Positions 3,309 through 56,288 of a DNA stretch of 64,000 nt are shown here, one piece after another. A program made the position numbers and the translations under genes. Source of the DNA: a bacterium. GTDB lineage: Bacteria > Patescibacteriota > Minisyncoccia > Phycocordibacterales > Phycocordibacteraceae. The notes under the pieces are model-generated. The model did not search any database. It was not told the DNA's origin and was given only the letters and a program-made list of their open reading frames with translations. The stretch is from assembly GCA_037200965.1 (NCBI GenBank), contig JBBCGK010000001.1, positions 256,001 through 320,000 of the forward strand, given 5' to 3'. Position 1 is the first letter of the stretch. Each line of letters begins with the position of its first letter.

Positions 3309-4337
3309 TTGTCAGGAAAGGGCAAACTGATGAAACATGACATCAGCTCTAGCGACAGCATTAGAACTGGACTGTGGGTATCACTTCTTGCGGGACTTGT
3401 TGCCGCACTGATCGTCTACTGGGCACTTGATGATTTTGGCCCCTATATCGCAGGTGCAGGAGCTTGTGCAGCCCTCGGCATGGTAGCTGGAACGCTCAAT
3501 AAGTCGGGCTATCTCGGCTATACCCCTCCCGGGGAAGTCGGCGCAGACACGATAAACGGTGAACTGACCGGCAGGATTCGCGGGCCAGGTTATCCGTGGG
3601 CAATTCCCGGTCTTGGCGGCCAAATCCCCCTGAACGTTCAGGAGCGTAAGATTTCACCGCGTATCTTTACCGAACTCGTCGGAAAAGTACCGGTAGAAGT
3701 TGAGCTTTTGAGTACAGGCCGGATCGTCGATGCACGGAAGCACTTCCAGGCGCAACAATCTGAAGATATCCTGCTGCCCGAGTTCATCGAAACGCAGGCG
3801 CGAGCCTTCATGGGCCCGTGGAAAGACGCCGGTGGCGTAATCCTGCAGAAGGATCTGGTTGCCGAATATCTCGGGCTCCCGGCAAAGGCAGATGATCGCG
3901 GCGAACATTCGAAGCTCGAGGCAAAACTCCTCGAGTGCACTGTCGTTACCGAAGAGGACGACACGCCCGATTTGCCAAAAAGCGCCGTCAGGACGCTTAT
4001 GGCGAACGCGGGCAAAGTGCGCGAACAAGCCGCGAAATGGGGCCTCGAAATCGGCGTGATGCAAACCAGGCATTTCGACCTTCCGCAAAGCCTGAAAGAC
4101 ATCGGCGCGCTCGCGCTTATCAACATCAAGCGCGGGGAGATGATCGAGGAACTCAAGAAGCACAAGGGTATCCCCGAGCAAGATATTCTCAACTCCGTCG
4201 ACATGCTGATGAAGCTGCCGATCACAAAATCGGTCTCGGACATCCAGATCCGCGATCTCGACGCAGTGGCGGCGCACTTCGGCAAAGCAATCGCCGAATT
4301 GCTCTTCCGCTACATCAAAAACACAGGAGGCAAATAA
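3309..4337 (+). CDS. SPFH/band-7 (stomatin/flotillin-like) membrane protein
   Basis: N-terminal TM helix, then G..R.PG....PG.G..IPLNVQER...VEV..STGRIVDA..HFQ and a later ..WGLEIGVMQTRHFDLP segment matching the SPFH beta-sheet and helix pattern. Confidence 0.55.
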   Translation: MSGKGKLMKHDISSSDSIRTGLWVSLLAGLVAALIVYWALDDFGPYIAGAGACAALGMVAGTLNKSGYLGYTPPGEVGADTINGELTGRIRGPGYPWAIPGLGGQIPLNVQERKISPRIFTELVGKVPVEVELLSTGRIVDARKHFQAQQSEDILLPEFIETQARAFMGPWKDAGGVILQKDLVAEYLGLPAKADDRGEHSKLEAKLLECTVVTEEDDTPDLPKSAVRTLMANAGKVREQAAKWGLEIGVMQTRHFDLPQSLKDIGALALINIKRGEMIEELKKHKGIPEQDILNSVDMLMKLPITKSVSDIQIRDLDAVAAHFGKAIAELLFRYIKNTGGK

Positions 4338-4819
4338 TGGCTACAGCCACCACAGCAACGACAACATCCGGAACTCAAGCGAGCGATGGACAAAATCGCG
4401 GACTCCCACCCAAAGAACTCTGGCCGCGCGTTCTGAAGTGGGGCGGCCTCGGAATCGCAGCGATCATACTGATCGCTGGAGCTAAAAGTCTTTATGCTGA
4501 TCATAAGACTCAGGAACAATCACGCCAAGCCGAAGCCGCCGTCCTTGTCTGCCCGCCCGCAAACGCAAGTTTGCAGCAATGCAGGATGCTCGTCGGAACG
4601 GTGAATAAGATCGACACGAGCGCATGCTCCACGGTCGAATTCCGGCCGATACCGAAGCCGGAATACGCCAAGGCGGAGTATCTTCCCGCCGGTCTCCGTG
4701 ACGTCCGGCAAAACTATCAGCGCTGGACGGGAACGGAAGATCTCCCGGCTCATATCGACGCCTGGCGGATCGAGCCCACTGCGGGCGAAATCCCCCAAGG
4801 CTACCAGTGCCTCAACTAG
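4337..4819 (+). CDS. Membrane-anchored hypothetical protein: poly-Thr/Ala N-terminus, one TM helix, Cys-containing ectodomain. Translationally coupled (TAATG) to the SPFH gene.
   Basis: The ATG overlaps the SPFH stop by 1 nt, with aggagg 8 nt upstream. A TM segment WGGLGIAAIILIAGA is present. A terminator hairpin follows at 4842-4885. Confidence 0.5.
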   Translation: MATATTATTTSGTQASDGQNRGLPPKELWPRVLKWGGLGIAAIILIAGAKSLYADHKTQEQSRQAEAAVLVCPPANASLQQCRMLVGTVNKIDTSACSTVEFRPIPKPEYAKAEYLPAGLRDVRQNYQRWTGTEDLPAHIDAWRIEPTAGEIPQGYQCLN

Positions 4820-4901
4820 CAGCACGTACCGCTGTCAACTTATACAACCCCCTCTCCTTTGCAGGAGCCCGGGGGTTGTTTCTTAATCCGCATCCCGCCC
4901 G

Positions 4902-5177
4902 CTAGGATGTAAACTTCGGTACCGACGGAATGCCGAACGTGCCCGTAATGACGCCCAATATGCCAAACACGCCGAAAATGATGACGAGGCCGACCAAGCC
5001 CCAGAGAATGGAACTCCTTCCCTCTTCCCGCGCGGTCTCGTCCCCGGCATTCGCAACGAACTTGAAGACGCCCCAGAGGAAGATGAGAAATGCCGCCGCA
5101 GCGATAAGCATGAGGAGCGGATTCACGATCTGCACCACGACGGTCTTGAGGAAATTATTCAATACGTCCATAGGCAT
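4902..5177 (-). CDS. Small two-TM protein with VirB2/TrbC-like topology (T4SS-pilin-like), paralog 1; no signal peptide
   Basis: Helix-loop-helix core FLIFLWGVFKFVANAGDETAREEGRSSILWGLVGLVIIFGV, shared with the five upstream paralogs. Confidence 0.55.
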   Translation of the reverse strand: MPMDVLNNFLKTVVVQIVNPLLMLIAAAAFLIFLWGVFKFVANAGDETAREEGRSSILWGLVGLVIIFGVFGILGVITGTFGIPSVPKFTS

Positions 5178-5236
5178 AAGAATAACACAAAGCCCCGGCC
5201 AGCGGCCGGGGCTTTGTGTTAAAACGCCGGGAGAAA

Positions 5237-5590
5237 CTAGAAGTCTGCCTGCGGAAGCGGAGGCGTCGCGTTATTGGTCGAGAAGGTACCTACGAGGATA
5301 TTCACGAGGCCCCAGATCGAGACCATAACGAAGAAGCCGATAAGGCCGTAGAGCATGAGTTTCTTGCCCTTTTCCTTCGCGTCTTCGTCGTTCGCCCCGA
5401 TGATGAAGACCTGGAAAGCGCCCCAGATGAAGACGATGAAGGCGACGGCAAAGAGCACCGGCACCAGGACGTTATTGATGATATTGATGACCGTGGTACC
5501 CACATCGGATACGCTTGAGATAGTGGCGGCACCGGCAAGGAGCGGCGTCAAAAGTGCGATTGCGGCAAACGGCGCGAGGTATTTCTTCAT
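5237..5590 (-). CDS. VirB2/TrbC-like pilin-like protein, paralog 2, with signal peptide
   Basis: Signal peptide MKKYLAPFAAIALLTPLLAGAA, then the two-hydrophobic-helix core VLFAVAFIVFIWGAFQVFIIGANDEDAKEKGKKLMLYGLIGFFVMVSIWGLVNIL. Confidence 0.6.
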   Translation of the reverse strand: MKKYLAPFAAIALLTPLLAGAATISSVSDVGTTVINIINNVLVPVLFAVAFIVFIWGAFQVFIIGANDEDAKEKGKKLMLYGLIGFFVMVSIWGLVNILVGTFSTNNATPPLPQADF

Positions 5591-5699
5591 AATGGTGATA
5601 TTCGTATAATGGCTCCCCGGCGTTGAGCGGAGTTCCCCTTATTCTAGCTTGCCTTCGCCCCAGGGCAAGCCGCGTCCCTGATTCGTGTGGATAAGAACC

Positions 5700-6122
5700 T
5701 TAAAGGGTCGGGTAGTCGGGCCGCGCGTATCCTCCAAGGCCGAGCGTATTGGAGAGGATATTGACCAGGCCCCACAGCGAGAACATCACCACGAAACCGA
5801 TCAGCCCCCAGAGGATGAACTGCCTTCCTTCCTTGCGCTTGTCCTCGTCCGCACCGCCCACGATGAAGTAGTTGAAGACGCCCCAGAGGAATACAAGGAA
5901 GGCGATGGTAAACAGGATGGGTACGAGAATATTGTTGATGACCACGAGCACAAGATCGCCGTAGTGGCCGAAGGCGCCCGCATTAACAACCGACACCGTC
6001 GGCCCCGGGCTTATCTGCGGAGTCCCGTCTCCCGTGACAGGATCGATCGCCGCAGCCGCATAGGAACAAAGCGGCGCCCCAAGAACCAGAAGCGCGATCA
6101 GGAAAGGAAGATATCGTTTCAT
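5700..6122 (-). CDS. VirB2/TrbC-like pilin-like protein, paralog 3, with signal peptide and a variable Gly/Pro/Thr-rich segment
   Basis: Signal peptide MKRYLPFLIALLVLGAPLCSYAAA; core FLVFLWGVFNYFIVGGADEDKRKEGRQFILWGLIGFVVMFSLWGLVNIL. Confidence 0.6.
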   Translation of the reverse strand: MKRYLPFLIALLVLGAPLCSYAAAAIDPVTGDGTPQISPGPTVSVVNAGAFGHYGDLVLVVINNILVPILFTIAFLVFLWGVFNYFIVGGADEDKRKEGRQFILWGLIGFVVMFSLWGLVNILSNTLGLGGYARPDYPTL

Positions 6123-6128
6123 ACGGGA

Positions 6129-6446
6129 TTAATAAGAAGTCGGATAAGCCGGATGGCGGTACCCGCCAAGATCGAACGTGTTAACGAGTATGTTGACCAG
6201 CCCCCATACCGAAAGCATGACGAAGAATCCGACGAGGCCGTACAGGATATACGTGCGGCCCGTCTCGCGTTTCGTTTCGTCGTCCGCGCCCAGTATGAAG
6301 TATTGGAAGACGCCCCAGATGAAGACGATGAAGGCGACGGCGAAAACGAGGGGAACGGCGACATTGTTGATGAGGCCGAGAATAGTACCGGCGATGCCCT
6401 GGAGGTTGCCGCAGTTTCCTACGCACAGCGAGAATGAGAATCCCAT
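6129..6446 (-). CDS. VirB2/TrbC-like pilin-like protein, paralog 4
   Basis: Core FAVAFIVFIWGVFQYFILGADDETKRETGRTYILYGLVGFFVMLSVWGLVNIL. Lies 6 nt downstream of paralog 3. Confidence 0.55.
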   Translation of the reverse strand: MGFSFSLCVGNCGNLQGIAGTILGLINNVAVPLVFAVAFIVFIWGVFQYFILGADDETKRETGRTYILYGLVGFFVMLSVWGLVNILVNTFDLGGYRHPAYPTSY

Positions 6447-6457
6447 ATGGTTTAGTA

Positions 6458-6703
6458 TTATAGCGCGATTATGCTAAGGCCGATGCGTATCAATCCCCAG
6501 ACCCCGAACATGACCACAAGCCCGATCAGCCCCCAGAGGATGAACTGCCTTCCTTCCTTGCGCTTGTCCTCGTCCGCGCCGCCCACGATGAAGTAGTTGA
6601 AGACGCCCCAGAGGAATGCGAATCCCGCAAGCGCAAAGACGACAGGAATGACAATCCCGCCTATGATGGCTACGATCGAATTGACGAGTTCGGCAAAGGT
6701 CAT
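6458..6703 (-). CDS. VirB2/TrbC-like pilin-like protein, paralog 5. Start chosen at the internal Met (MTFAELVNS...) because the N-terminal extension shown in the ORF track overlaps the upstream gene.
   Basis: Core FAFLWGVFNYFIVGGADEDKRKEGRQFILWGLIGLVVMFGVWGLI is nearly identical to paralog 3. The ATG lies 1 nt after the stop of the upstream gene. Confidence 0.5.
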   Translation of the reverse strand: MTFAELVNSIVAIIGGIVIPVVFALAGFAFLWGVFNYFIVGGADEDKRKEGRQFILWGLIGLVVMFGVWGLIRIGLSIIAL

Positions 6704-6704
6704 A

Positions 6705-7247
6705 TCAGGTGCCAAGCGCCTGTACCGTCGCCTGGATTCCGAGCGAGATCGCCTTGGCGCCAAGGAGAATGAGCGCTCCGACGACCGTCCACAGGAGCGC
6801 CTCGCGCGCCTCCTTTATTTTTTCTTCCGCTCCCTGCGCGGTCACGAATTTGAAACCTACGTAGACGAGCATCAAGACGATGACGATGCCGCCGATCTGT
6901 ATCACGAGGTCGAGGACGGCATTGAGGAAATCCGGAATCGTCGAAAAGCCGAGAGGATTCGTAAGGCCGCTTCCGCCTCCCCCGCCGCCTGGAACCGTTC
7001 CCGCCGGACGGCATACTCCCGCCACGCAGGTATCAGTGCCGGTGCAGGCAGGCTTGCAGGCTGAACCGCCGGGAACGGTACCGGCCGCTTGGCATTTGCC
7101 GTTGACGCATGTATCGGTACCGGTGCAAGCAGGAAGGCAGGCGGAGTCGGCGGCCTGCGCAGGAGCAGGTACGAGGATAAACACCATGAGAAACGCGACC
7201 GTGGCCGGAACAATAAAATACTTGCCTGTAGCGTTCATGATTTTCAT
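6705..7247 (-). CDS. Pilin-like paralog 6: signal peptide, two tandem Cys-rich repeats (ACxPACTGTDTCVxGxCxxAGTVPGG), a Gly-rich linker, then the VirB2-like two-TM C-terminal core
   Basis: Start at MKIMNATGKYF (ATGA overlap with the stop of the SBP gene). Repeats ADSACLPACTGTDTCVNGKCQAAGTVPGG and SACKPACTGTDTCVAGVCRPAGTVPGG. C-terminal FKFVTAQGAEEKIKEAREALLWTVVGALILLGA. Confidence 0.55.
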   Translation of the reverse strand: MKIMNATGKYFIVPATVAFLMVFILVPAPAQAADSACLPACTGTDTCVNGKCQAAGTVPGGSACKPACTGTDTCVAGVCRPAGTVPGGGGGGSGLTNPLGFSTIPDFLNAVLDLVIQIGGIVIVLMLVYVGFKFVTAQGAEEKIKEAREALLWTVVGALILLGAKAISLGIQATVQALGT

Positions 7248-8542
7248 TGTATCGCCTGAGTCAGCGCGCGCTCGGCGGAAACAAGGGCTTCGCTTAGGGA
7301 TACGCGTCCGGTAATCACGTCCATAATCATAGCGCCGAATATGCGGTCCGTATCCTCGGGCGCTGGGGACAGCCATCCCCGGCTTATAAGCGCTTCGCGA
7401 TAAAAGACCGAAGCGAAAGGATCGGCGGGCTCGGTTCCAAGAAGCGACAGGCGTGCGGGCGCAAGCCCCGTGGCGCCCGCAAGCGCGGTCATAACCGCGG
7501 GATCCGCGAGCGCGACGGCGGCGCTATAGGCACCGGCGGGGTTCGGACTCCCTTTGGGGATAGCGAACGCGTAGAGGTCGCCGAACGTAATCCGGTTCAC
7601 GGCATTCCCCGTCTGCGGCAAGGCCGCGACATCGAAATCGAGATTGGGATTCGCCGCACGCAGGAACGGCGCATCGGACGCGAAGCCGATATACAGCGCG
7701 AGATCGCCGGAGACGAACGCCTGCCTTGAATCCGGGAGCGACCCGTTCCAGGTATAGGAAACTTTCGAAGGATCGGCGAACTGGGTGTAGTAGCGCACCA
7801 CGGCCTCCCCGGGAGAGACGCCGCCAAAGCTTTGCGTCTCGGCGCCAAGCGATGCCTTGAGGCCGAGTGTCGTGCGGGCCGAGAGCGGTACTCCGCTTTG
7901 GAGAAAGAGCGCGGAAAGAATAGCGCCCGCGTGGTCGACGTTGGCATAGGTTCCAAGACCGATGAGCCCGCGCTCGATGTTCCTCCCTCCGTCAAGCTGC
8001 GCCGTACGCGGCACGAGTCCGACAAGGGCCTCCCATGCCGACGGAGGAGCTACGATACCGGCGGACGAGAGAGTCGCGCGGTTGTAGTAGAGGACGAGCG
8101 GATCGACCGCGAGCGGAATGCCGTAGACCCCGTCGGACGCAAGGAAAAGCTGCCCTTCCTGCACGAACGCGTCGGTAAAGGCGCGCGCCGAAATCGAGCT
8201 GTACGGGATCGGTATAAGCTTGTCCTCAAGCGAGACGAGATGCTCCTGGCTTATGAGCACCAGGTCGGGGCCCGTACCCGACGCCAGAGCGTCGACGAGT
8301 TCCCGTTCGAAGGTCGCGGGCTGCTTGCCGACATACCGTATGCCCTTAAGCTCGGTATTCTGGCCCGTAATGTTCGCAAGAGCCGGGGCGATCTCGTCCT
8401 GAGGGAGCGTGCCCCATATCGTCACCGTCCCGATGGAGCCGGTGCCGGAGGAGCCGGTGAAGGTCGCGAAGACGAAGATGCCGATTAGCGCGAGGAGGAC
8501 AAACGCGCCGATGATTCCCGCCTGGAAAAATGAGATCTTCAT
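7244..8542 (-). CDS. Extracellular solute-binding protein (family-1 SBP-like; ABC-type sugar-binding fold) with an N-terminal membrane anchor
   Basis: Start taken at MKISFFQAGIIGAFVLLALIGIF. Motifs LISQEHLVSLEDKLIPIP and GVYGIPLAVDPLVLYYNR are typical of SBP_bac_1. Confidence 0.6.
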   Translation of the reverse strand: MKISFFQAGIIGAFVLLALIGIFVFATFTGSSGTGSIGTVTIWGTLPQDEIAPALANITGQNTELKGIRYVGKQPATFERELVDALASGTGPDLVLISQEHLVSLEDKLIPIPYSSISARAFTDAFVQEGQLFLASDGVYGIPLAVDPLVLYYNRATLSSAGIVAPPSAWEALVGLVPRTAQLDGGRNIERGLIGLGTYANVDHAGAILSALFLQSGVPLSARTTLGLKASLGAETQSFGGVSPGEAVVRYYTQFADPSKVSYTWNGSLPDSRQAFVSGDLALYIGFASDAPFLRAANPNLDFDVAALPQTGNAVNRITFGDLYAFAIPKGSPNPAGAYSAAVALADPAVMTALAGATGLAPARLSLLGTEPADPFASVFYREALISRGWLSPAPEDTDRIFGAMIMDVITGRVSLSEALVSAERALTQAIQ

Positions 8543-8543
8543 G

Positions 8544-9074
8544 TTAGGGAGCGGTAAATACGATGCCGTAGTGATGGGGGCCGGCGCTGAACTTCTTAAC
8601 CACATGGAAACCGGCGGCGGCAAAGACCGCTTCGGCCGCTTGTTCGTTCACCACGTGTGAAGGGTCCGGGCCGAGCCCCCCGTACGCTCCGGCCCAATCG
8701 ATGACCAGAAGCTTCCCTCCGGGCTTAAGAATACGGCGCAGTTCGGCCGCGACTATCGCCTTCTCTTTTATCTGAAACAGCGTGTTGGAAAGAATCGCAC
8801 CGTCGACCGCCTGATCCCGAAGCGTGGTTCCGCGCGGCTTCTCGATATCGCCCCATACGGTTTCTATGGTCCGCACCCCCTGCTCCCGCGCCGTTCCCTG
8901 AATGCGCTTCAGCACATCCTCCTGAACATCGATCGCATATACCCGCCCGTCCACCCCCACGGCGTGCGCCGCGGCAAGGGAATAGTGTCCGCTCCCCGCC
9001 CCGAGGTCCGCCACTTTCACTCCTTCCCTGAGGCCCATCTGCAGTACGTTCGTCTTCGGATCGGCGAAATTCAT
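8544..9074 (-). CDS. Class I SAM-dependent methyltransferase
   Basis: Motif I VADLGAGSGHYSL, and acidic residues after beta-2 (AIDVQED). The stop lies 1 nt before the SBP start. Start chosen at MNFADPK, with a tatact -10-like box upstream; the longer start at 9125 is also possible. Confidence 0.65.
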   Translation of the reverse strand: MNFADPKTNVLQMGLREGVKVADLGAGSGHYSLAAAHAVGVDGRVYAIDVQEDVLKRIQGTAREQGVRTIETVWGDIEKPRGTTLRDQAVDGAILSNTLFQIKEKAIVAAELRRILKPGGKLLVIDWAGAYGGLGPDPSHVVNEQAAEAVFAAAGFHVVKKFSAGPHHYGIVFTAP

Positions 9075-9194
9075 GCGATCAGTATAGCAAGAGCGCCCGC
9101 GCTGCTGGCGCATAGTCAACAGCATATAAAAACAGGCGGTCTTTCGGCCGTCCGCGCCACAAGCATTGCTTCCGGGAGCGAAACGGCCCGGCGA

Positions 9195-9587
9195 TTAATG
9201 AACGGTCGCCGCGGTGCCTTCAAGAACCACGCGCCCGGTCTTATAAAGCGACACATCGATGCTTCGTCCGGGAGCGACCGGAACCGCAAATGTTTCGAGC
9301 AGTTCCGCGGCGGGCGCATCGGTTTTGTGCCGCTCGTTAAAGCCCGTGATGCCGGCTACGAAATCCGTCGCGGCCATATCCGGGTCCTTGAGCGCTATCA
9401 CCAGCTTCGCCGCTTCCGGAGAGAAGCGGTAGAGAGTGGTCATGTGCGCTTCCATCTGCCCGCGCTCGAGCATGAGCTGGTCGGCTGATTTTTCGATGGG
9501 CGCGAGCGTGCTCGCAACGGAAGCGGGTTCCGCCTTCTTTTCGCTTGGCACAAGCCTCCGAATCAGTCCTTCAAAGGGGTTTGCCAT
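9195..9587 (-). CDS. Hypothetical protein
   Basis: 130-aa ORF with coherent codon usage and no recognisable motif. Confidence 0.4.
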   Translation of the reverse strand: MANPFEGLIRRLVPSEKKAEPASVASTLAPIEKSADQLMLERGQMEAHMTTLYRFSPEAAKLVIALKDPDMAATDFVAGITGFNERHKTDAPAAELLETFAVPVAPGRSIDVSLYKTGRVVLEGTAATVH

Positions 9588-9676
9588 CAGCTAACGGTAG
9601 CACGAACCGAAACGATGGCGAAAAGCCGCTTCAGGGTGTATAAGTAGCGCGGTTAGGAAAGAAGGAGAACAGCATC

Positions 9677-10297
9677 ATGTCCGAAGTATTCCATGTACAT
9701 ACCTTCGCAGGACTGAACGGTCCGCCCGTTCTCGTCGCCTGCTTCTGGCACCCTGTGCTCCTGACCGGAGGTATCGGGTTTTGCATGAAGCAAGCCGATG
9801 CGGAGAAAATCGCGGCGACAAAGTCCCTGCCTGAAGGAGACCGCACCAGTGTCTTGAGCGCGCTCAAGATGCTTCCGAAAAGCAGCCCGGAGTTGGCGTT
9901 CACGTTGAGGGGTCGATATACAGGGTCGTTTATCGGTCTCGTCAACGACTTCAAGCCACTCATCGGTCGCATCGTCGCCCGTCCGCACACGAAACCGGTT
10001 TTTTGGGCCATGTGGCCTCCGGACGCCGATGGGACGGCCGAAACGACACTGATGTGGTTCACCCCAAGCAAAGGTTACGAGGTCGGCGTCGTTTTTTCCG
10101 TCGAACAATTCGAAGCTCTTGTCCACGAACTCGATTCGGCCAATTTGCTCAACGACCAGCTTCGAGCTGAGTTCAAGGCGAACAAGTGGCGCGTCGAAGC
10201 GCGGCGCGGCGAAGTGTGGGAGCCTATTCGCGTCACCGGATCGCCAGCCCGCATCATCTGCATCGGCTCGATGGTTATAGAACGGGCGAAGATGTAA
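9677..10297 (+). CDS. Hypothetical protein
   Basis: Strong SD gaaggagaac 6 nt before the ATG. An intrinsic terminator follows (10320-10357). Preferred over the overlapping minus ORF 9653..10330. Confidence 0.55.
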   Translation: MSEVFHVHTFAGLNGPPVLVACFWHPVLLTGGIGFCMKQADAEKIAATKSLPEGDRTSVLSALKMLPKSSPELAFTLRGRYTGSFIGLVNDFKPLIGRIVARPHTKPVFWAMWPPDADGTAETTLMWFTPSKGYEVGVVFSVEQFEALVHELDSANLLNDQLRAEFKANKWRVEARRGEVWEPIRVTGSPARIICIGSMVIERAKM

Positions 10298-10679: not shown

Positions 10680-13600
10680 TTAAAGCGCCACCATCGACGC
10701 GATTGAATCGCCCTCGTAGAGCCGCATGATACGCACGCCCTGGGTCGCGCGGGAAAGCGACGGCACTTCCTTGGCGGTGATGCGGATAACCTGTCCCTTT
10801 TTAGAAACAACGACGATTTCCTCATCCGACACGTCCTTCCCGAGAAGCACTTTCGCGCCGATGATCTCGCCCGTCTTCGGTGTCACCTCTGCCGTCTTGA
10901 TGCCGGAACCTCCCCGGCCTTGCACCTTGTATTCGGAAAGCTCGGTCGACTTGCCGTATCCTTTCGACATGATGACGAGGAGGGACGCGTCCTTGGCTGC
11001 GGCCGAAATCACTTCCGCGGAAACGACCGTGTCGCCCTTGCGCACGCTCATGCCGCGCACGCCTCCGGCGGTCCGCCCCATCGCGCGCACGTCGCCCTCC
11101 TCGAAGCGGATGCTTTGGCCCTTGGCGGTTACGATCGAAACGCTGTCGCTCTCTTCGGCAAGATGCGCGGCAACGAGCTTATCGCCGTCCTTGAGGTTGA
11201 TCGCGATGATGCCCGAGCGGCGTACATCCGCGAAGGACTTTGCTTCCACTTTTTTCACAATGCCGTTTGCCGTCACGAAGAATACCGACAAGGCGTCGCG
11301 CTCGGCGCCCTTGGGGACCGGAAGTACCGAAGTCACCTTCTCGTCACCGGCAAGCGGAAGGAAGTTCATCATGCTCTTTCCCTTGGTCGCGCGCTTCCCT
11401 TCGGGGATCTCGTACATCTTGAGCTGGTATGCCTTGCCGTAGTCGGTGAAGAAGAGGAGGTCGGAGTGCGCCGAGGCCGCGAGGAAGTGCGTCACGACGT
11501 CCTCCTCCTTGGTCGAGAGGTCGACGACGCCGACGCCGCCGCGCTTCTGCGTCTTGTATTCCGACGGGTTCGTGCGCTTCACGTAGCCTCCGGCGGTGAG
11601 GACGAGGACGGACTCCTCGTCCGGCACCAGGTCTTCGACGGAGATGTTCTGAACCCCGCCTTTGACGATCTTCGTGCGGCGGTCGTCGCCGTATTTCTCG
11701 CCGATAGCGACGAGTTCCGTCTTCACGACCGCGAGGATGTTCTTTGCGGAAGAGAGTATCTTCTCGAGCTTCGCGATAAGCGCCTGGACCTCCGCCAGTT
11801 CGTCCTCGATCTTCTTGCGCTCGAGGCCCGCGAGTTTCGACAGCCGCATCTCGAGGATCGCCGCCGCCTGAAGCTCCGAAAATGCGAATTTCTTCTGGAG
11901 CGCGAGGGACGCGGCCGGGACATCGGCGGCTTTCTTGATGATCGCGATGACCTCGTCGATATGGTCGAGCGCTTTCGAAAGTCCGAGGAGGATGTGCTCG
12001 CGCGCCTTCGCCTGCCGGAGATCGAATTCGGTACGCCGCTTCACCACTACTCTCCGGTGTTCTATGAAATTCTCGAGAATGCCCTTGAGCGAAAGCGTCT
12101 GCGGCACGCCGTCGACGAGCGCAAGCATGTTGTAGTGGAAAGCGCTCTCGAGCTCGGTGTGCTTATAAATCGTATTGAGGACGGCCTGCGGGTGCGCCGT
12201 GCCTTTGAGCTCGACGACAATGCGGGTCTCAAATGACGTCGTCGACTCGTCGCGCAGGTCCCGTACGCCCTCGAGCTTCTTGTCGCGCACGAGATCGGCG
12301 ATGCGGGTGATGAGGTCGGCTTTATTGACGCGGTACGGGATCGAGGTGATGACAATTTTCGAATCCTTCTTGCCGTCGTCGACGATCTCCGCTTCGCCGC
12401 GCACCACGACCCCGCCCCGTCCGCTTATGTACGCCTGCCTGATATCGGCCTGGTTAAAGGCAACCCCCCCGAGCGGGAAATCCGGGCCTTTGACGAATTT
12501 GAGGAGGTCCTCGGTCGTCGCCTCGGGCTCGTCGATGAGGTGCACGGTCGCGTCGACCACTTCCCGCAGGTTATGGGGCGGTATTGCGGTTGCCATGCCG
12601 ACCGCGATACCGAGCGTGCCGTTAAGGAGAAGGTTCGGCACGGCGGCGGGAAGCACGGATGGCTCCTTACGGCTCGCGTCATAGTTGGGGTTCCATTCGA
12701 CCGTGTCCTTGTCGAGGTCGTTCATGATGTCCTCCGCGATGCGCGACATCTTGGCCTCGGTATTGTGGTTTATGAATCCGTTAGCGACAAAGGAGTGGCA
12801 CTCGCTTCGCACCCGGATCGAATACACAGGAGCTGGTGCCTCGTTCGTTACGGAAGCCACTACATCGAACAAATACCGGTGGCGCGAGAGTTCGCCGAAC
12901 AGCGCCTCGACCGTCGGACGCACATGCGGCAGCACGGCGGAGGCGACGAGCGGGCCATGTTCGGCAAGCGCGGTGTATCGGTCGAAATTATGCTTGCGTA
13001 CGAATCTCCCGATACCCTGATAGCTCGGCGGTGCAAGATGCGAACGCACGTATCCTGCGATGAACGGCACGTAGTCGGTAGCCGATGAGTCCTTGGAGAG
13101 CCGCGCGATCGCTTTGCCAAGCTTCGTTTTCTTGCGCGCGGAAACAAAACCGATCTCGCGCTCAAAGAGGCGGTAGTCATGGAGACCCCGTATATAGAGC
13201 TTTTCGATCGCGCGGTGGCAGTCGTGACGGCGCGTGCTTGCGATGCCAAGGCGCATAAGAACGACCTGCATTTCGTCGAGAAGCGCCGTGCTCTTAGATA
13301 CGACGCTCAATTCCGTCATTTTCGACGAGAAGCTTATGCCGCCGTCGCCTTCAAAATACGCCTGAAGGAAAGCTGCGACGACTGGCTTCGGAGACCGCAG
13401 CACCGAGAACGGGATACGCTTTTCGGGCGATTTTACCGGCGCAAGCCCTATAGCGCGCAGAAACGCAATCACATATTGCGAGTGAATCTCGATGGTGTAG
13501 TACGGCTTCTTACCATAGGAAGACGGTTCGCGCCTGAAGTGGTGCAGGCGGCAGCCAGGAAACACGCGGGCGAAGCGCTCGACGAAGGCCTGGATGAGGT

Positions 13601-14489
13601 CGGGGTCGCTGTTGCAGAACTCCAACTCCTTTTCCTTGATGGTACCTTCCGATACGAGGAGGCCGAGGATGAATGCCAGGTCTTCGGTAAGCTCCGCAGG
13701 CAGCTGCTGTACTGTAATCCGTTTGTTCGCGACTTTCGGAACAAAGGGCGTGAGGGAGAGCGGGTGTTCCGGCCACAAAAGGTCGGGGGTCCGATCCATC
13801 ACCACCACGTCGCCTTCGTCGATATCGGCAAGAAGCTTCCACGCGAAGCGGGGTACGCCAGTTGCCGGATCCTCGTGCCAGATAAGAAGCGGGTGGTTGC
13901 GGGAACCACGGATCCGGTATCCCCGATTGGTTTTGAGGGCTATCGTTGGATGAACGCCGCTATCGAACCACGCATCGGCCGAATTGATCCGGCCGTTCAT
14001 CGAAATCACCCGCGCCTCGATTTCTTCCGTGCCGTCGTCGGATAGTTCCTTGATGGGAACCAGACCCTTATCTGTCGCAACAAGCGTGTCCCCCGTGACG
14101 CAATACCGCATGGCGGCTGGCGAGTCGCCGTCGATCGAGCCGAAATTGCCCTGCCCGATCACGAGCGGATAGCGGTGCGAGAAATCCTGCGCAAGCTTCG
14201 TCATCGCGTCATAGACGCTCGCGTCGCCGTGCGGATGGTATTTGCCGAGCACGTCGCCGACGACAAGCGCGGACTTGCGGAATTTCGCGCCCGCCGTGAG
14301 CCCAAGCTCGCTCATGGCGTAAAGGATGCGGCGGTGTACCGGCTTCAGGCCGTCGCGCACGTCGGGAAGCGCGCGGGAGGTGATCACGCTCATCGCGTAA
14401 TCGACGTAGGAGGTGCGCATCTCGCCCGTGATGCTCTGCCCTATGATGCGCCCGCCAAGCGGTACGGCCGACTGTTCTTCCTTAGCCAT
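10680..14489 (-). CDS. gyrA: DNA gyrase subunit A interrupted by a 447-aa intein; the exteins total 822 aa
   Basis: N-terminus ...[13 protein letters not shown]...GKYHPHGD...SPAAMRY; the C-terminal GyrA beta-pinwheel repeats are intact. The intein lies between AAMRY and TEAKMS. Confidence 0.9.
12762..14102 (-). mobile_element. GyrA intein at the canonical gyrA-a site, with an embedded LAGLIDADG homing-endonuclease domain
   Basis: Begins CVTGDTLV (block A) and ends VANGFINHN followed by extein T (HN|T). Two LAGLIDADG motifs: [14 protein letters not shown] and [14 protein letters not shown]. Confidence 0.85.
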
Positions 14490-16030: not shown

Positions 16031-16289
16031 GCGCAAGGCAAAGTGCGCCGCGGTTCCCGGGATTACGCGAAAGCGTTTTTCCGGGTCCCGCGGCCGCGCT
16101 CTCGCCATTTTCTCTCCTGGCATCATTCGACTCCCAATCAAAGGTCCCGTTTACGGGGCCTTTTGTTTTATTACGACATATCCACAGGGGTATTGACAAT
16201 TCAGCACGGGGTGTGCTAGGGTCCCCTAATCGGACCTGGACTGGCCAGGAAGAACCGATACAGTCATCCTCGAGAAAGGGGAAATTCCA

Positions 16290-22828: not shown

Positions 22829-23851
22829 GTGAGTTCAACAAGTAAAAGCACCACCTTCCATTAATACTGGAGGCATATGGCGCATATGAGCATCGAGGAA
22901 CGCGAGCTGATACAGAAAGGGCTGTGGGAGAAGAAATCGGTGCGAGAGATCGCCCGGGAGCTCAGACGTCCGCATTCGACCGTGAGCAAGGAGATCCGAC
23001 GGAATCTCCCGCCCGAGCGGCGGGTATATACGCCCCGTCTCGCCAACGAACGAGCGCTCGAGAAACGGAAGTCCCGGGGACGGCAATCGCGCCTCAAGAG
23101 TCCCGAGCTCGGGGAGTACGTGGTCGAACACCTGAAGCTCGGCTGGTCTCCCGAGCAGATATCCAGCACCGCCCCAGAGCGAATATCGCACGAAGCCATA
23201 TACCAGTATGTATACGCACAGATACATCGCAAGGGATATGGGCATCCAAAGCCCGGGAAGGAAGACCTGCGCCCATACCTGGCGCGGCGTCACAAGCGAC
23301 GGCAGAAGATGGGGCACCGCAAATCACAAAGAGTCCTGCGCCCAACGGGCCCGAGCATTGATGAACGCCCGCTCGTTGTCGAGAAACGCACACGCCTGGG
23401 CGACTGGGAGGGCGACAGTATCGAAGGCAAGAACCATGGGCCCGGCCTCAACTCCCTGGTCGATCGCGGGAGCGGACTCCTCCTCTTGTCGAAGCTCGAG
23501 GCCAAAGATGCGGACGCGACCTGCGCAGCGGTCGCCCGCAGGCTCGCGGGGATGTGCGCCCACACCCTCACCCTCGACAACGGGCCCGAGAACCGTCCAT
23601 GGCAGGAACTTGAGACGGCAACGGGAGCCCGGGTGTACTTCGCCCACCCGTATCACTCCTGGGAGCGCGGCTCAAACGAGAACACTAATGGCTTGGTACG
23701 TCGTTTCTTCCCGAAAGGTACCGACTTCAGCCTCGTCTCCGACGAGACTGTGGCGGCAGTGGAGTATGTTCTCAATACGAGGCCTCGGAAACGGCTCGGG
23801 TATCGGACACCATTAGAAGTCTGGGGTGGTGCTTTGAGAGGTTGAATTCAC
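22829..23851 (+). mobile_element. IS30-family insertion sequence, about 1.02 kb, with imperfect 27-bp terminal inverted repeats
   Basis: IRL gtgagttcaacaagtaaaagcaccacc (22829-22855) against the reverse complement of IRR gtgaattcaacctctcaaagcaccacc (23825-23851). The transposase stop lies inside IRR, as is typical of IS30. Confidence 0.7.
22877..23845 (+). CDS. IS30-family DDE transposase
   Basis: N-terminal HTH (SIEERELIQKGLWEKKSVREIARELRR) and the DDE region ...GDWEGDSI...LTLDNGPE...HPYHSWERGSNENTNGLVRRFFPKG. Confidence 0.85.
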   Translation: MAHMSIEERELIQKGLWEKKSVREIARELRRPHSTVSKEIRRNLPPERRVYTPRLANERALEKRKSRGRQSRLKSPELGEYVVEHLKLGWSPEQISSTAPERISHEAIYQYVYAQIHRKGYGHPKPGKEDLRPYLARRHKRRQKMGHRKSQRVLRPTGPSIDERPLVVEKRTRLGDWEGDSIEGKNHGPGLNSLVDRGSGLLLLSKLEAKDADATCAAVARRLAGMCAHTLTLDNGPENRPWQELETATGARVYFAHPYHSWERGSNENTNGLVRRFFPKGTDFSLVSDETVAAVEYVLNTRPRKRLGYRTPLEVWGGALRG

Positions 23852-35778: not shown

Positions 35779-36005
35779 GAATGGGTATTAGAAATAAGGA
35801 CGCGCGGAGCCGCGTGCGAGCAGCCCGTAGAACAAGAGTACGGAAATCAAAATAACGGCGATCTCAAGGGGAGATGATGGGGCGATAAACCGAAATCGGG
35901 AACTTGAACTACAAAACAAAGACCGCCCTGTCAGCAGAGTTTCCGAAAGGACGGACCCTGCGACAAGGCGGTTTATGGGCAGGAACGCCCGCGCAATACT
36001 CTCCG

Positions 36006-36440
36006 TCAGCGCAGGCGCTTCGCCAGGCCGATTGCAGCCTTGCGAACTTCCGGCGTCAAATTGAGATCGAGGAAGTCTCGATACGACACCCATTTTAACG
36101 CCGAATGCTCATCGCTGAGCTTTTTTATTCCGCCGACGAGTCGGCACACGCTAAACAACACAACATACGGCAGACCCTTGTACGCGCCGTCGCCGATAAC
36201 GTAGCTGTCTGCGAAGCATTGAAGCTCGACGGGGGTAACGAAATACCCCGTCTCTTCGATTACCTCGCGTTCCTGCGCATGAGCGATGTCTTGGCCTTGA
36301 TCGAGTTTGCCACCCGGACATTCCCAGAGGCCAGCGTGATGGCTCTCGTTGGCCGATCGTCGTATGGCGAGCAGTCTTCCGTCATGGCGCTTTACGAAAG
36401 CGCGGGTGACGAGGACCACGCGCGGACGTGGTGAGGGCAT
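36006..36440 (-). CDS. NUDIX hydrolase
   Basis: Nudix box GLWECPGGKLDQGQDIAHAQEREVIEETG. Confidence 0.8.
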   Translation of the reverse strand: MPSPRPRVVLVTRAFVKRHDGRLLAIRRSANESHHAGLWECPGGKLDQGQDIAHAQEREVIEETGYFVTPVELQCFADSYVIGDGAYKGLPYVVLFSVCRLVGGIKKLSDEHSALKWVSYRDFLDLNLTPEVRKAAIGLAKRLR

Positions 36441-36515
36441 GGTGCAAGCGTCCTTCGGCGCTGATTAGAACATCCCGCAATACAATGGCATAAGGATTAT
36501 ATAACGCAAGCGCTG

Positions 36516-56282: not shown

Positions 56283-56288
56283 GCAAGA

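What the first reader, a model, noticed from the sequence alone, without database searches (positions are those of the whole stretch)
4902..9074. Operon of a methyltransferase, a solute-binding protein and six tandem VirB2/TrbC-like pilin-like paralogs
Six consecutive minus-strand genes encode 80-180-aa proteins sharing a hydrophobic helix, a short charged loop (GADEDKRKEGR-like) and a second hydrophobic helix (LWGLIGxxVMxxxWGLVNIL). Four of them have signal peptides and variable inserts. This is the topology of T4SS pilins (VirB2/TrbC; it resembles the Pfam T4SS_pilin family that is abundant in CPR genomes). The genes are tightly coupled, with 1-nt gaps and an ATGA overlap, to an upstream membrane-anchored family-1 solute-binding protein and a class I SAM methyltransferase. 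No VirB4, VirD4 or other T4SS core gene is present in the window. The array may therefore encode diversified surface or cell-contact filaments or a novel membrane system. This is a candidate for an undescribed surface system.
Basis: partly seen in the sequence, partly recalled or inferred. Interest (0 to 1): 0.75.

Follow-up and report, generated by a model that had tools for sequence, protein, structure and literature searches.

The report
Conserved six-pilin operon in Kaiserbacteria
This is a conserved chromosomal operon of an ultra-small (CPR/Patescibacteria) bacterium that couples a methyltransferase and a membrane-anchored sugar-type binding protein to six distinct VirB2-like "secretion-system pilin" genes; arrays like it are already described in this phylum and their function is still unknown.

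Summary
Eight minus-strand genes (4902-9074) encode a class I SAM methyltransferase, a TM-anchored family-1 solute-binding protein (SBP) and six two-helix hairpin proteins. All six pass Pfam's own threshold for T4SS_pilin (PF18895).

The source is a 960-kb Patescibacteria contig related to Ca. Kaiserbacteria. VirB2-like pilin arrays are already published for this phylum, including an essential six-pilin cluster in Southlakia. The kind is therefore not new.

The organisation is, as far as I could find, undescribed:
- In 83 related loci the order MTase-SBP-pilins is always kept. 63 of 68 complete arrays have exactly six genes.
- The cassette sits at a fixed site between gyrA and rbfA-infB, away from virB4.
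- The six genes are position-specific orthologues (88-100% same-position best hits). They are fixed, non-redundant subunits, not a variable repertoire.
- An internal sigma-70 promoter with a DnaA-box-like TATCCACA motif drives genes 5-6.
- A 33%-identical SBP in an Andersenbacteria-like contig keeps the same linkage.

Best reading: major and minor subunits of a heteromeric pilus or conduit for the T4SS-like machine encoded elsewhere. Function is inferred, not shown. No T4SS core gene lies in the window.

The parts
9075..9121 (-). 5' control region of the operon. It holds a conserved TGTTGAyT box (9114-9121), a GC-rich inverted repeat, and an extended -10 (TGCTATACT, 9081-9089) that ends 6 nt before the MTase ATG. 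This arrangement predicts a leaderless mRNA.
   Evidence: Sequence read. The same layout (TGTTGATT, 10-bp hairpin, TGnTATTTT, 6-7 nt, ATG) is seen in most of 81 loci. The hairpin covaries: 8 of 10 pairs change on both sides, and 0 of 500 shuffles reach the observed score. The window's own copy of the hairpin is imperfect.
8544..9074 (-). Class I SAM-dependent methyltransferase, 176 aa, cytoplasmic (no TM helix or signal peptide). First gene of the cassette.
   Evidence: Pfam Methyltransf_31/11/25, E=1e-17 to 1e-14. The nearest solved structure is 3dh0, an uncharacterised SAM MTase (E=3e-20). Phosphoethanolamine N-MTs follow at E=1e-8. An MTase lies directly upstream of the SBP in all related loci.
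7244..8542 (-). Family-1 solute-binding protein, 432 aa. It is anchored by a conserved N-terminal TM helix and is not a lipoprotein. No ABC permease or ATPase gene is adjacent.
   Evidence: SBP_bac_8 E=5e-21 and SBP_bac_1 E=2e-16. The AF2 model has pTM 0.79, a helix at 5-29 and a two-lobe fold. The best structural matches are oligosaccharide-binding proteins at E~1e-20. Orthologues are 49-58% identical over the full length. 12 of the first 27 residues are at least 90% conserved.
6705..7247 (-). Pilin position 1 (p6), 180 aa. It has a signal peptide, two Cys-rich CxxxCx5Cx4C repeats, a Gly-rich linker, an LTNPLG motif and the hairpin. This is the paralogue closest to TrbC/VirB2.
   Evidence: PF18895 41.4 bits; TrbC 25.0 bits, E=2e-5, below the gathering score. 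The start overlaps the SBP stop as ATGA. Position-1 orthologues have a signal peptide in 56 of 63 loci, a median N-extension of 92 aa and a median of 4 Cys. 5 of 6 sampled orthologues hit TrbC.
6458..6703 (-). Pilin position 2 (p5), 81 aa. A bare hairpin without a signal peptide.
   Evidence: PF18895 30.8 bits. The gap after p6 is 1 nt. Position-2 orthologues have a median length of 89 aa, and only 1 of 63 has a signal-peptide-like N-terminus.
6129..6446 (-). Pilin position 3 (p4), 105 aa. It has no signal peptide in this genome.
   Evidence: PF18895 36.2 bits. Hydropathy shows two helices only. About half of the orthologues carry a signal peptide.
5700..6122 (-). Pilin position 4 (p3), 140 aa. 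A signal peptide, a ~30-aa ectodomain and the hairpin. Across genomes this is the most variable position.
   Evidence: PF18895 33.3 bits. Orthologue lengths range from 95 to 466 aa, with C-terminal extensions up to 383 aa. It shares 112 nt at 95.5% identity with p5.
5591..5699 (-). Internal promoter region in front of position 5. It holds a TTATCCACA (DnaA-box consensus) at 5686-5694, a -35 TTGCCC at 5663-5668 and a -10 TAGAAT at 5641-5646.
   Evidence: Promoter scan and sequence. This gap is at least 40 nt in 63 of 63 loci, median 85 nt. An alignment of 63 loci shows conserved cTATCCACA, TTGACC-17-TACAAT and a second GTTATCCACTTA in the short 5' UTR. 51 of 60 loci have an exact TATCCACA, and 52 of 60 have TTGAnn-N16-18-TAnnAT.
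5237..5590 (-). Pilin position 5 (p2), 117 aa. A classic prepilin layout: signal peptide, hairpin and a ~20-aa C-tail. Candidate major subunit.
   Evidence: PF18895 43.1 bits, the best of the six. It is the most conserved position, with 75% core identity between genomes. Length is constant at 117-136 aa, and 60 of 63 orthologues have a signal peptide. It has its own promoter. The AF2 model gives helices 5-21, 27-64 and 69-106 at pLDDT 74.5.
5183..5221 (-). 18-bp GC-rich hairpin between positions 5 and 6. It is followed by TGTTATTCT, an extended -10-like sequence, 7 nt before the ATG at 5171. It looks like a terminator plus a leaderless-promoter module. It is specific to this lineage.
   Evidence: Terminator scan and sequence. 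In most loci this junction is ~3 nt; only 3 of 63 are 40 nt or more.
4902..5177 (-). Pilin position 6 (p1), 91 aa (89 aa if the ATG at 5171 is used). A bare hairpin without a signal peptide.
   Evidence: PF18895 34.6 bits. NCBIfam NF045849 (Mbov_0395 pilin-like conjugal transfer protein) 41.9 bits, above its cut-off of 40. Core identity between genomes is 73%.
4844..4879 (.). Terminator-like hairpin (ACAACCCCC...GGGGGTTGT) shared with the convergent plus-strand gene. It marks the 3' end of the cassette.
   Evidence: Sequence read. The 80 nt after position 6 fold strongly in the 63 loci (median -29 kcal/mol).

Best explanation
**What it is.** The cassette is a vertically inherited core operon of a Kaiserbacteria-like Patescibacterium. 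It encodes six non-redundant VirB2-like (PF18895) membrane hairpin proteins, an extracytoplasmic oligosaccharide-type binding protein and a cytoplasmic SAM methyltransferase.

**Proposed working (inferred).**
- The six hairpins insert into the membrane with both ends outside and the short charged loop inside.
- They co-assemble into one heteromeric pilus or envelope-spanning conduit. The VirB4-type (MPF-FATA-like) T4SS encoded elsewhere in the genome uses this structure.
- Position 5 is the abundant major subunit. It has a signal peptide, a constant length, the highest conservation and its own sigma-70 promoter.
- Positions 2 and 6 (bare hairpins) and positions 1, 3 and 4 (variable ectodomains, Cys-rich at position 1) are low-copy accessory subunits, at the base or the tip.
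- They are made from a translationally coupled, probably leaderless MTase-SBP-pos1-4 message.
- The TM-anchored SBP probably docks to this assembly through its conserved TM helix. It would supply glycan recognition of a host surface or a host-derived ligand.
- The MTase probably modifies the only cytoplasm-exposed part of the pilins, the Lys/Arg/Glu-rich loop that would line the lumen, or an associated lipid.

**Shown:** family membership, gene order, positional orthology, promoter conservation, the SBP fold. **Inferred:** filament or conduit formation, dependence on the T4SS, and the roles of the SBP and the MTase.
For: **Family.**
- All six genes are above the PF18895 gathering score.
- 144 of 144 orthologues hit PF18895.
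- Position-1 proteins also reach TrbC/VirB2, and one passes its gathering score.
- p1 passes the NCBIfam cut-off for a pilin-like conjugal transfer protein.

**Conservation.**
- MTase-SBP-array is present in every one of 83 related loci. 63 of 68 complete arrays have exactly six genes.
- The best hit in another genome is at the same position in 100/94/94/88/100/100% of comparisons for positions 1-6.
- Core identity is 55-75% at the same position against 21-48% between positions.
- Signal peptides and extensions are position-specific.
- The site is fixed: gyrA lies upstream in 47 of 48 loci and infB downstream in 35 of 39.
- The linkage survives at 33% SBP and 36% MTase identity in an Andersenbacteria-like contig.

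**Co-assembly.** In that distant lineage one array gene has become a single polypeptide of 5-6 tandem hairpins. This shows that hairpins work side by side.

**Expression architecture.**
- Start/stop overlaps or 1-nt gaps run from the MTase to position 2.
- A conserved TTGACC-17-TACAAT promoter lies before position 5 in 52 of 60 loci.

**Literature.**
- Six essential VirB2-like pilins lie within the Southlakia T4SS cluster.
- VirB4 is present in 5 of 6 cassette-bearing Kaiserbacteria genomes.
- PF18895 proteins are among the most highly expressed secreted proteins of cultured Paceibacteria.

**SBP.** Oligosaccharide-binding fold and a conserved TM anchor.
Against: - No T4SS core gene lies in the 64-kb window or in the annotated flanks of four related loci. 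The link to VirB4 is by genome co-occurrence only. It was not checked in this genome.
- No pilus has been seen for any PF18895 protein.
- A sequence search of PDB chains finds no solved pilin.
- Three of the six proteins lack a signal peptide, unlike canonical VirB2.
- A tight operon with an SBP has no precedent in known T4SSs.
- The roles proposed for the SBP and the MTase rest on gene order alone.
- The 'major subunit' call rests on promoter logic, not on expression data from this organism.
Confidence: 0.55

Rival explanations
1. The six hairpins (12 TM helices) form a T4SS-independent, membrane-embedded hetero-oligomer. Together with the TM-anchored SBP it acts as a new SBP-dependent uptake or signalling device for a host-derived glycan. 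The pilin fold would be re-used as a channel or ring subunit, not as a filament.
For: - The number is fixed at six and each position is kept.
- The SBP and the first pilins are translationally coupled.
- No ABC permease or ATPase gene lies next to the SBP, and no T4SS gene lies within the window.
- The SBP's TM helix is as conserved as its globular domain.
- Single-chain proteins of 5-8 hairpins exist and sit in the same cassette. That is easier to reconcile with a membrane complex than with extraction of subunits into a pilus.
Against: - The family is homologous to TrbC/VirB2 and to conjugal-transfer pilin-like proteins.
- Positions 5-6 have a separate strong promoter, which implies unequal stoichiometry.
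- Positions 1 and 4 carry large, variable, Cys-rich ectodomains. Elsewhere a PKD-repeat giant is fused to the hairpin. These features point to surface display.
- In Southlakia the equivalent six pilins lie inside the T4SS cluster.
- No SBP-dependent transporter built of 2-TM subunits is known.
Confidence: 0.2
2. The array is a repertoire of interchangeable alternative pilins. It would serve host-range or antigenic variation, as suggested for Patescibacteria arrays by analogy with Bartonella and Anaplasma. One or a few would be used at a time.
For: - This is the published suggestion for these arrays.
- Positions 1 and 4 vary greatly in length and ectodomain between genomes.
- A 112-nt gene-conversion tract links p3 and p5 in this genome.
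Against: - Each position is orthologous across 63 species-level genomes, with 88-100% same-position best hits.
- Copy number is fixed at six in 63 of 68 complete arrays.
- Each position has its own conserved architecture, including signal peptide presence.
- Within-genome identity (21-48%) equals between-genome cross-position identity, so the duplications are ancient with no turnover.
- No silent-cassette or invertible-promoter structure was seen.
Confidence: 0.1
3. The pilin genes, the SBP and the MTase are functionally unrelated neighbours. They would be kept together only by operon inertia in a compact genome, with the MTase a housekeeping enzyme and the SBP belonging to a distant ABC importer.
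For: - The MTase and the SBP have generic family hits only.
- The surrounding genes are housekeeping (gyrA, infB, rbfA).
- Patescibacteria genomes are compact.
Against: - The order MTase-SBP-pilins, with overlapping or 1-nt junctions, is kept in all 83 loci.
- It persists at 33-36% protein identity in a distant lineage.
- Other flanking genes between gyrA and the MTase change from locus to locus.
Confidence: 0.1

Closest known systems
VirB2-like pilin arrays of Patescibacteria. Examples are the essential six-pilin cluster in the T4SS locus SEML1_0006-0019 of Ca. Southlakia epibionticum ML1, the 'Sec-secreted array' of TM7x, and the 441 arrays reported in 383 assemblies.
   Same: - Same Pfam family (PF18895, with or without PF04956).
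- Tandem array in a monoderm CPR genome.
- Six genes, as in Southlakia.
- Low identity between paralogues. The published mean is 25% and maximum 54%. Here it is 21-48%.
- No relaxase context.
   Different: - This array is not in the virB4 cluster. It lies between gyrA and rbfA-infB.
- It is fused into one operon with a SAM-MTase and a TM-anchored family-1 SBP. Neither is mentioned in the papers I read.
- Arrays were reported as most abundant in Microgenomatia and Saccharimonadia. This one is universal in a Paceibacteria lineage.
- Positional orthology argues against the published 'variation' idea.
- Orthology to the Southlakia six was not tested.
VirB2/TrbC/TraA conjugative pilins of Gram-negative T4SSs (Pfam PF04956)
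   Same: - Small proteins with two hydrophobic helices joined by a short basic loop.
- A signal peptide in three of the six.
- Position-1 proteins give significant TrbC matches.
   Different: - These systems usually have a single pilin gene next to virB3/virB4. Here there are six fixed paralogues far from any virB gene.
- Three of the six lack signal peptides.
- The envelope is monoderm.
- There is no sequence match to any solved pilin.
- Cyclisation or acetylation enzymes (TraF, TraX) are absent from the cassette; a SAM-MTase is present instead. This last point rests on my knowledge of those systems.
Mbov_0395 / MMCAP2_0565 family pilin-like conjugal transfer proteins of Mycoplasma ICEs (NCBIfam NF045849)
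   Same: An 80-aa two-helix protein of a wall-less or monoderm bacterium. p1 scores 41.9 bits against a cut-off of 40, and the other five score 23-37 bits.
   Different: - That family is an ICE-borne single gene.
- This is a chromosomal, syntenic, six-gene core operon. No integrase or relaxase is nearby.
Major and minor pilin sets of type IV pili and type II secretion pseudopili (an analogy of logic, not homology; from general knowledge)
   Same: - A fixed set of paralogous subunits with distinct conserved roles.
- One abundant major subunit with its own expression signal.
- Minor subunits with variable ectodomains.
   Different: - An unrelated fold and assembly machinery (PilD-processed N-terminal helix against a two-helix hairpin).
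- No prepilin peptidase motif is present here.
Family-1 (MalE-type) oligosaccharide-binding proteins of ABC importers, e.g. CpMnBP1, T. maritima MalE and GacH
   Same: Same fold (Foldseek E~1e-20, TM 0.65-0.74) and same Pfam families.
   Different: - Sequence identity is only 15-20%.
- It is TM-anchored with a conserved anchor.
- It has no cognate permease or ATPase gene nearby.
- It is always co-transcribed with pilin genes.

Membership tests
Pfam PF18895 T4SS_pilin | Whole-protein score at or above the curated gathering score (26.6 bits) | tested here: met
   The six proteins score 34.6, 43.1, 33.3, 36.2, 30.8 and 41.4 bits. 144 of 144 orthologues match at E<=1e-3.
Pfam PF04956 TrbC/VirB2 pilin | Score at or above the gathering score (27.9 bits) | tested here: inconclusive
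   p6 scores 25.0 bits (E=2e-5), below the cut-off. p2 scores 13.5 bits. 20 of 144 orthologues match at E<=1e-3. One position-1 orthologue (L024) scores 28.2 bits, above the cut-off.
NCBIfam NF045849 Mbov_0395 pilin-like conjugal transfer protein | Score at or above the curated cut-off (40 bits) | tested here: inconclusive
   p1 scores 41.9 bits and passes. The other five score 23.5-37.5 bits and are below the cut-off.
VirB2-type T4SS pilin (functional class) | Topology: cleavable signal peptide, two TM helices and a short charged connecting loop | tested here: inconclusive
   All six have two helices and a charged loop. A signal-peptide-like N-terminus is present in p2, p3 and p6 only. This rests on a hydropathy heuristic, since no SignalP or DeepTMHMM was available.
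VirB2-type T4SS pilin (functional class) | Encoded with, or in the same genome as, the VirB4 ATPase and the VirB3/VirB6 channel components | tested here: not met
   None was found among the window ORFs scanned or in the annotated flanks of L001-L004. The rest of the 960-kb contig could not be read. Published Table S1 lists VirB4 as present in 5 of 6 cassette-bearing Kaiserbacteria genomes.
VirB2-type T4SS pilin (functional class) | Polymerises into an extracellular pilus, with stoichiometric phospholipid | not testable with these tools
   This needs cryo-EM or cryo-ET, or purification. The monomer model is a plain helical hairpin, and fold searches do not discriminate.
Patescibacterial VirB2 array (Quinonero-Coronel et al. 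2025) | 2-11 PF18895/PF04956 genes in tandem, or separated by one non-pilin gene, in a Patescibacteria genome | tested here: met
   Six consecutive PF18895 genes. The source is contig JBBCBH010010897.1 of GCA_037975565.1. The closest SBP and pilin homologues are annotated as Ca. Kaiserbacteria or Paceibacterota.
ABC-importer solute-binding protein, family 1 | SBP_bac_1 or SBP_bac_8 domain and a two-lobe fold | tested here: met
   Pfam scores of 61-76 bits. AF2 model with pTM 0.79. Foldseek matches to oligosaccharide SBPs at E~1e-20.
ABC-importer solute-binding protein, family 1 | Genomic association with cognate permease (MalF/G-type) and ATPase genes | tested here: not met
   No such gene is adjacent in the window or in the annotated related loci. 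The neighbours are always the MTase and the pilins. The rest of the genome was not searched.
Class I SAM-dependent methyltransferase | Rossmann-type SAM-binding domain (Methyltransf_11/25/31) | tested here: met
   E=1e-17 to 1e-14. PDB entry 3dh0 matches at E=3e-20. No equivalog-level NCBIfam model reaches its cut-off, so the substrate is unknown.

The most novel reading that the evidence does not exclude
The MTase-SBP-six-hairpin cassette is a self-contained host-tapping device. In this reading the TM-anchored oligosaccharide-type binding protein captures a host-surface or host-derived glycan. It hands the glycan to, or gates, a heteromeric tube built from six fixed VirB2-derived subunits. 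The lumen-lining loops of that tube are tuned by a dedicated methyltransferase. Production of the major subunit is tied to the cell cycle through DnaA boxes. This would be a new class of SBP-coupled conduit derived from conjugative pilins. It would also give a concrete mechanism for how Paceibacteria extract nutrients from their hosts.
Probability: 0.12. Interest if true: 0.85.

Novelty: new variant of a known kind. Interest (0 to 1): 0.5.

Why it matters
The T4SS-like machine and its pilin array are essential in the only genetically tractable Patescibacterium, and their function is 'completely unknown' (PMC11665869).

This locus adds three testable constraints:
- The six pilins are fixed, position-specific subunits. 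That points to one heteromeric structure and not to a variation repertoire.
- In a large Paceibacteria lineage they are strictly co-transcribed with a sugar-type binding protein and a methyltransferase. This nominates a ligand-recognition partner and a modification partner.
- One subunit pair has its own conserved promoter with a DnaA-box-like operator. This gives a handle on regulation and predicts which protein is the major subunit.

None of these establishes function. Together they turn a vague 'pilin array' into a defined eight-gene module with specific experiments.

Tried and rejected
2. **Sequence and profile search of PDB chains.** I used the position-5 profile and p6. No solved pilin was found.
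3. **RNAalifold on the MTase-upstream hairpin.** It failed because MAFFT put the stems out of register. Counting a hand-specified helix showed covariation.
4. **Rfam at a permissive threshold over 4700-9700.** There was only one sub-threshold chance hit.
5. **PADLOC defence models.** The only hit was a generic MTase-domain match. A defence-system reading is rejected.
6. **Mobile-element reading.** It is rejected because the cassette lies at a fixed gyrA/infB site in dozens of species.
7. **Multi-hairpin proteins as a 'Rosetta-stone' fusion of the six paralogues.** This is rejected. In L085 the 6-hairpin protein is one array gene with internal repeats. It sits among the other array genes that were called.
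8. **Finding VirB4 in this genome.** This was not possible. I had no VirB4 query sequence.
9. **Long position-4 proteins in Kaiserbacteria as multi-hairpin proteins.** They are not. Each has one hairpin plus a long extension.

Full report
**Observation**

The minus strand between 4902 and 9074 carries eight consecutive ORFs. Candidate starts and junctions were read from the sequence.

| Gene | Coordinates | Length |
|---|---|---|
| MTase | 8544-9074 | 176 aa |
| SBP | 7244-8542 | 432 aa |
| p6 | 6705-7247 | 180 aa |
| p5 | 6458-6703 | 81 aa |
| p4 | 6129-6446 | 105 aa |
| p3 | 5700-6122 | 140 aa |
| p2 | 5237-5590 | 117 aa |
| p1 | 4902-5177 | 91 aa |

- The junctions are TAA-C-ATG (1 nt), an ATGA overlap, TGA-T-ATG (1 nt), then gaps of 11, 6, 109 and 59 nt.
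- The six small proteins align over a core of helix, charged loop and helix (A1).
- By hydropathy, p2, p3 and p6 have an extra N-terminal signal-peptide-like segment. p1, p4 and p5 do not.

**Family assignment**

- All six exceed Pfam's gathering score for PF18895 T4SS_pilin, at 30.8-43.1 bits against 26.6.
- p6 also matches TrbC/VirB2 (PF04956) at E=2e-5, but below that family's cut-off.
- p1 passes the NCBIfam cut-off for the Mbov_0395 pilin-like conjugal transfer family.
- The SBP is SBP_bac_8/SBP_bac_1. The first gene is a generic class I SAM methyltransferase.

**Source and literature**

- p3 is encoded on the 960,259-bp contig JBBCBH010010897.1 of GCA_037975565.1.
- The SBP and p2 have full-length homologues at 53-84% identity. 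These are annotated as Ca. Kaiserbacteria, Paceibacterota or Minisyncoccia.
- Quinonero-Coronel et al. 2025 searched Patescibacteria with exactly these two Pfam models (PMC12102498).
  - They found VirB2-like pilins in 1,948 assemblies.
  - The pilin gene lay near virB4 in 1,135 of them.
  - They reported 441 arrays of 2-11 pilin genes in 383 assemblies.
- They cite the essential pilin series in the T4SS cluster of Ca. Southlakia epibionticum (PMC10633639).
- The kind of feature is therefore already described.
- Neither paper mentions a solute-binding protein or a methyltransferase next to the pilins.
- Searches for Kaiserbacteria with pilin, or VirB2 with Paceibacteria, found nothing more specific.

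**Conservation of the cassette**

- Three SBP homologues looked up on long contigs all showed gyrA, then MTase-SBP-(5-6 PF18895 genes), then rbfA-infB.
- A scan of one genome per species with the SBP alignment returned 80 loci.
- I built an HMM from the six window proteins and iterated it once on the hits. With it, every locus shows MTase, SBP and pilin genes in that order on one strand.
- Of 68 loci with sequence beyond the array, 63 have exactly six pilin ORFs, two have seven, two have five and one has three.
- gyrA lies upstream in 47 of 48 loci with enough flank. infB lies downstream in 35 of 39.
- This is a vertically inherited core locus, not a mobile element.

**The six genes are position-specific orthologues**

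- For positions 1-6, counted from the SBP, the best BLAST hit in another genome is at the same position in 100, 94, 94, 88, 100 and 100% of about 3,900 comparisons each.
- Median core identity is 64/65/67/55/75/73% at the same position, against 21-48% between positions. The between-position values within a genome equal those between genomes.
- Each position has its own architecture:

| Position | Window gene | Architecture across 63 loci |
|---|---|---|
| 1 | p6 | Signal peptide in 56 of 63; long, variable, Cys-rich N-ectodomain (median 92 aa) |
| 2 | p5 | Bare hairpin, about 89 aa |
| 3 | p4 | Intermediate; signal peptide in about half |
| 4 | p3 | Highly variable, 95-466 aa; C-terminal extensions up to 383 aa |
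| 5 | p2 | Signal peptide in 60 of 63; constant 117-136 aa |
| 6 | p1 | Bare hairpin, about 91 aa |

- Position-1 proteins are the ones that reach TrbC/VirB2. 5 of 6 sampled match, and one is above the cut-off.
- A repertoire maintained for antigenic or host-range variation would not show fixed number, fixed order and ancient orthology. This argues for six non-redundant subunits.

**Transcription architecture**

- Median junctions over 63 loci are 1, 1, 19, 9, 85 and 3 nt. These are, in order, SBP/1, 1/2, 2/3, 3/4, 4/5 and 5/6. The 4/5 gap is at least 40 nt in all 63.
- Aligned, that gap holds a canonical TTGACC-17-TACAAT promoter. A conserved cTATCCACA lies about 20 nt upstream of the -35.
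- A second GTTATCCACTTA lies in the ~25-nt 5' UTR.
  - 51 of 60 loci have an exact TATCCACA, at a median of 79 nt before the ATG.
  - 52 of 60 have the promoter pattern.
- The window's copy is TTATCCACA (5686-5694), TTGCCC-16-TAGAAT.
- TTATCCACA is the textbook DnaA-box consensus (my knowledge). Whether DnaA binds here is untested.
- The motif occurs 6 times in the window against 0.48 expected. Most copies lie upstream of gene starts.
- At the 5' end of the operon most loci share the following order of elements: TGTTGATT, a 10-bp GC hairpin, TGnTATTTT, 6-7 nt, ATG.
  - The hairpin covaries.
  - The extended -10 so close to the ATG predicts a leaderless MTase message.
- In the window only, an 18-bp hairpin and a similar TGTTATTCT-7 nt-ATG module separate positions 5 and 6.
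- The predicted units are therefore MTase-SBP-pos1-4, translationally coupled, and pos5(-6), separately and probably more strongly expressed.
- In cultured Paceibacteria, PF18895 proteins are among the five most highly expressed signal-peptide genes of unknown function (PMC10936435).

**Depth of the linkage and multi-hairpin proteins**

- A profile of the six window proteins finds 25,410 cluster representatives at E<=1e-3 in 1.84 billion proteins.
- Among the top hits are single polypeptides with 2-8 tandem hairpins. They are real continuous ORFs.
- One is P0277, 501 aa with six hairpins. Its 90%-identity cluster mate is annotated Ca. Andersenbacteria.
- P0277 lies in the order S1, Lactamase_B_3, gyrA, MTase, SBP, three pilins, the six-hairpin gene, then further pilins.
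- A five-hairpin relative lies in another MTase-SBP-pilin cassette.
- The MTase and SBP there are only 36% and 33% identical to the window's. The linkage and the gyrA site are therefore old.
- The multi-hairpin protein is one array gene with internal repeats, not a fusion of the six. It still shows that hairpins function side by side.
- Elsewhere a PF18895 hairpin is fused to a 1,627-aa PKD-repeat protein. This points to surface display.

**SBP and MTase**

- The SBP model has pLDDT 77 and pTM 0.79. It has a TM helix at 5-29 and a two-lobe fold.
- Its nearest structures bind manno-, malto- and sophoro-oligosaccharides (E~1e-20, TM 0.65-0.74, 15-20% identity). The sequence profile search gives the same picture.
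- 12 of its first 27 residues are at least 90% conserved. That is unusual for a passive anchor and suggests intramembrane contacts. This is inference.
- The MTase has no TM helix and no signal peptide. Its nearest solved relatives are uncharacterised SAM MTases, then phosphoethanolamine and phospholipid N-methyltransferases at weak E-values.
- Its target is unknown. The pilins' cytoplasmic Lys/Arg/Glu-rich loop and a membrane lipid are the two candidates I can name. Both are speculative.

**Link to a T4SS**

- None of the window ORFs scanned matches VirB4, VirB6 or VirD4. They match a P-type ATPase, AcrB/HlyD, FtsA, S1, signal peptidase I, PrsW and others.
- The annotated flanks of related loci also lack T4SS genes.
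- I could not read the rest of the contig.
- Table S1 of PMC12102498 lists VirB4 as present in 5 of 6 Kaiserbacteria genomes that I showed to carry the cassette. That paper places virB4 near dnaA in Paceibacteria.
- The T4SS link therefore rests on homology, genome co-occurrence and the Southlakia precedent.

**What did not help**

- The p2 model is a plain hairpin with helices at 27-64 and 69-106.
- PDB sequence searches find no pilin.
- Rfam and PADLOC scans are negative.

**Verdict**

- The feature is a member of the published class of Patescibacterial VirB2-like pilin arrays, so it is not a new kind of system.
- As far as I could find, four points are not described:
  - the strictly conserved eight-gene MTase-SBP-six-pilin operon at a housekeeping site away from virB4;
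  - its positional orthology;
  - its split transcription with a DnaA-box-like operator;
  - its persistence into a distant lineage.
- I rate it a new variant of a known kind, with moderate interest of 0.5.
- Function remains inferred. My best reading is a heteromeric major/minor pilin assembly for the T4SS-like machine, at confidence 0.55.

Noticed in passing
window 5686-5693, 16179-16186, 38339-38346, 46171-46178, 55662-55669, 63440-63447: The 8-mer TATCCACA, the core of the DnaA-box consensus TTATCCACA, occurs 6 times against 0.48 expected. The largest count in 100 shuffles was 2. Most copies lie 45-110 nt upstream of a gene start in the same orientation, often just upstream of a -35-like hexamer. 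It may be the site of a global regulator. The binder is unknown.
   Followed up: partly
window 9075-9121, and the equivalent position in most of L005-L084: A conserved module lies upstream of the MTase: TGTTGATT, a 10-bp GC hairpin with compensatory changes, an extended -10 (TGnTATTTT), then ATG 6-7 nt later. It suggests a leaderless mRNA and a structured element whose role is unclear. It could be an upstream terminator overlapping the promoter, or a regulatory hairpin.
   Followed up: partly
window 5781-5892 (p3) and 6506-6617 (p5): 112 nt are 95.5% identical between the position-4 and position-2 genes. The tract encodes the identical stretch FNYFIVGGADEDKRKEGRQFILWGLIG. This is far above the usual ~46% protein identity between these positions. 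It is probably a recent gene-conversion tract specific to this genome.
   Followed up: partly
window 5183-5221: A perfect 18-bp hairpin with 11 GC pairs is inserted between pilin genes 5 and 6. Most relatives have only ~3 nt there. In this genome it would make gene 5 a monocistronic unit flanked by a promoter and a terminator.
   Followed up: partly
window 10680-14489 (minus strand): GyrA is 1,269 aa. It carries an intein with a LAGLIDADG homing-endonuclease domain (Pfam Intein_splicing and LAGLIDADG_3 in the record's precomputed hits). The GyrA proteins of related loci are 816-830 aa and lack the intein.
   Followed up: no
L085 9751-11256; L086 5679-7016; proteins P0247, P0249, P0264, P0267, P0327, P0388: Single polypeptides exist with 5-8 tandem PF18895 hairpins (10-16 predicted TM helices). 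At least two sit inside MTase-SBP-pilin cassettes of an Andersenbacteria-like lineage. Some repeats within one protein are nearly identical, which suggests internal amplification.
   Followed up: partly
L087 4561-9444: A 1,627-aa protein combines a PF18895 hairpin with many PKD repeats. It lies next to two multi-hairpin PF18895 genes and secE-nusG. Here the pilin hairpin may be used as an anchor for a giant surface protein.
   Followed up: no
window 7244-8542 (SBP residues 1-27): The signal-anchor helix of the SBP is as conserved as its globular domain. F14, A18, G21 and F25 are invariant in 30 sequences at 52-77% identity. This hints at specific contacts within the membrane.
   Followed up: no
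window 36001-40000 and 56001-58000; 22877-23845: Two stretches have a G+C content of ~0.49 against ~0.59 for the rest of the window. There is also an IS30-like gene (HTH_38 plus a weak rve match). These may be horizontally acquired islands in an otherwise syntenic chromosome.
   Followed up: no
window 3309-4819 (plus strand): A weak SPFH/Band 7-like gene (342 aa as listed; the record aa) is followed by a 160-aa membrane-anchored protein with no family. Both converge on the end of the pilin array. A Band_7 gene occupies the same place in L003, but not in most other loci.
   Followed up: partly
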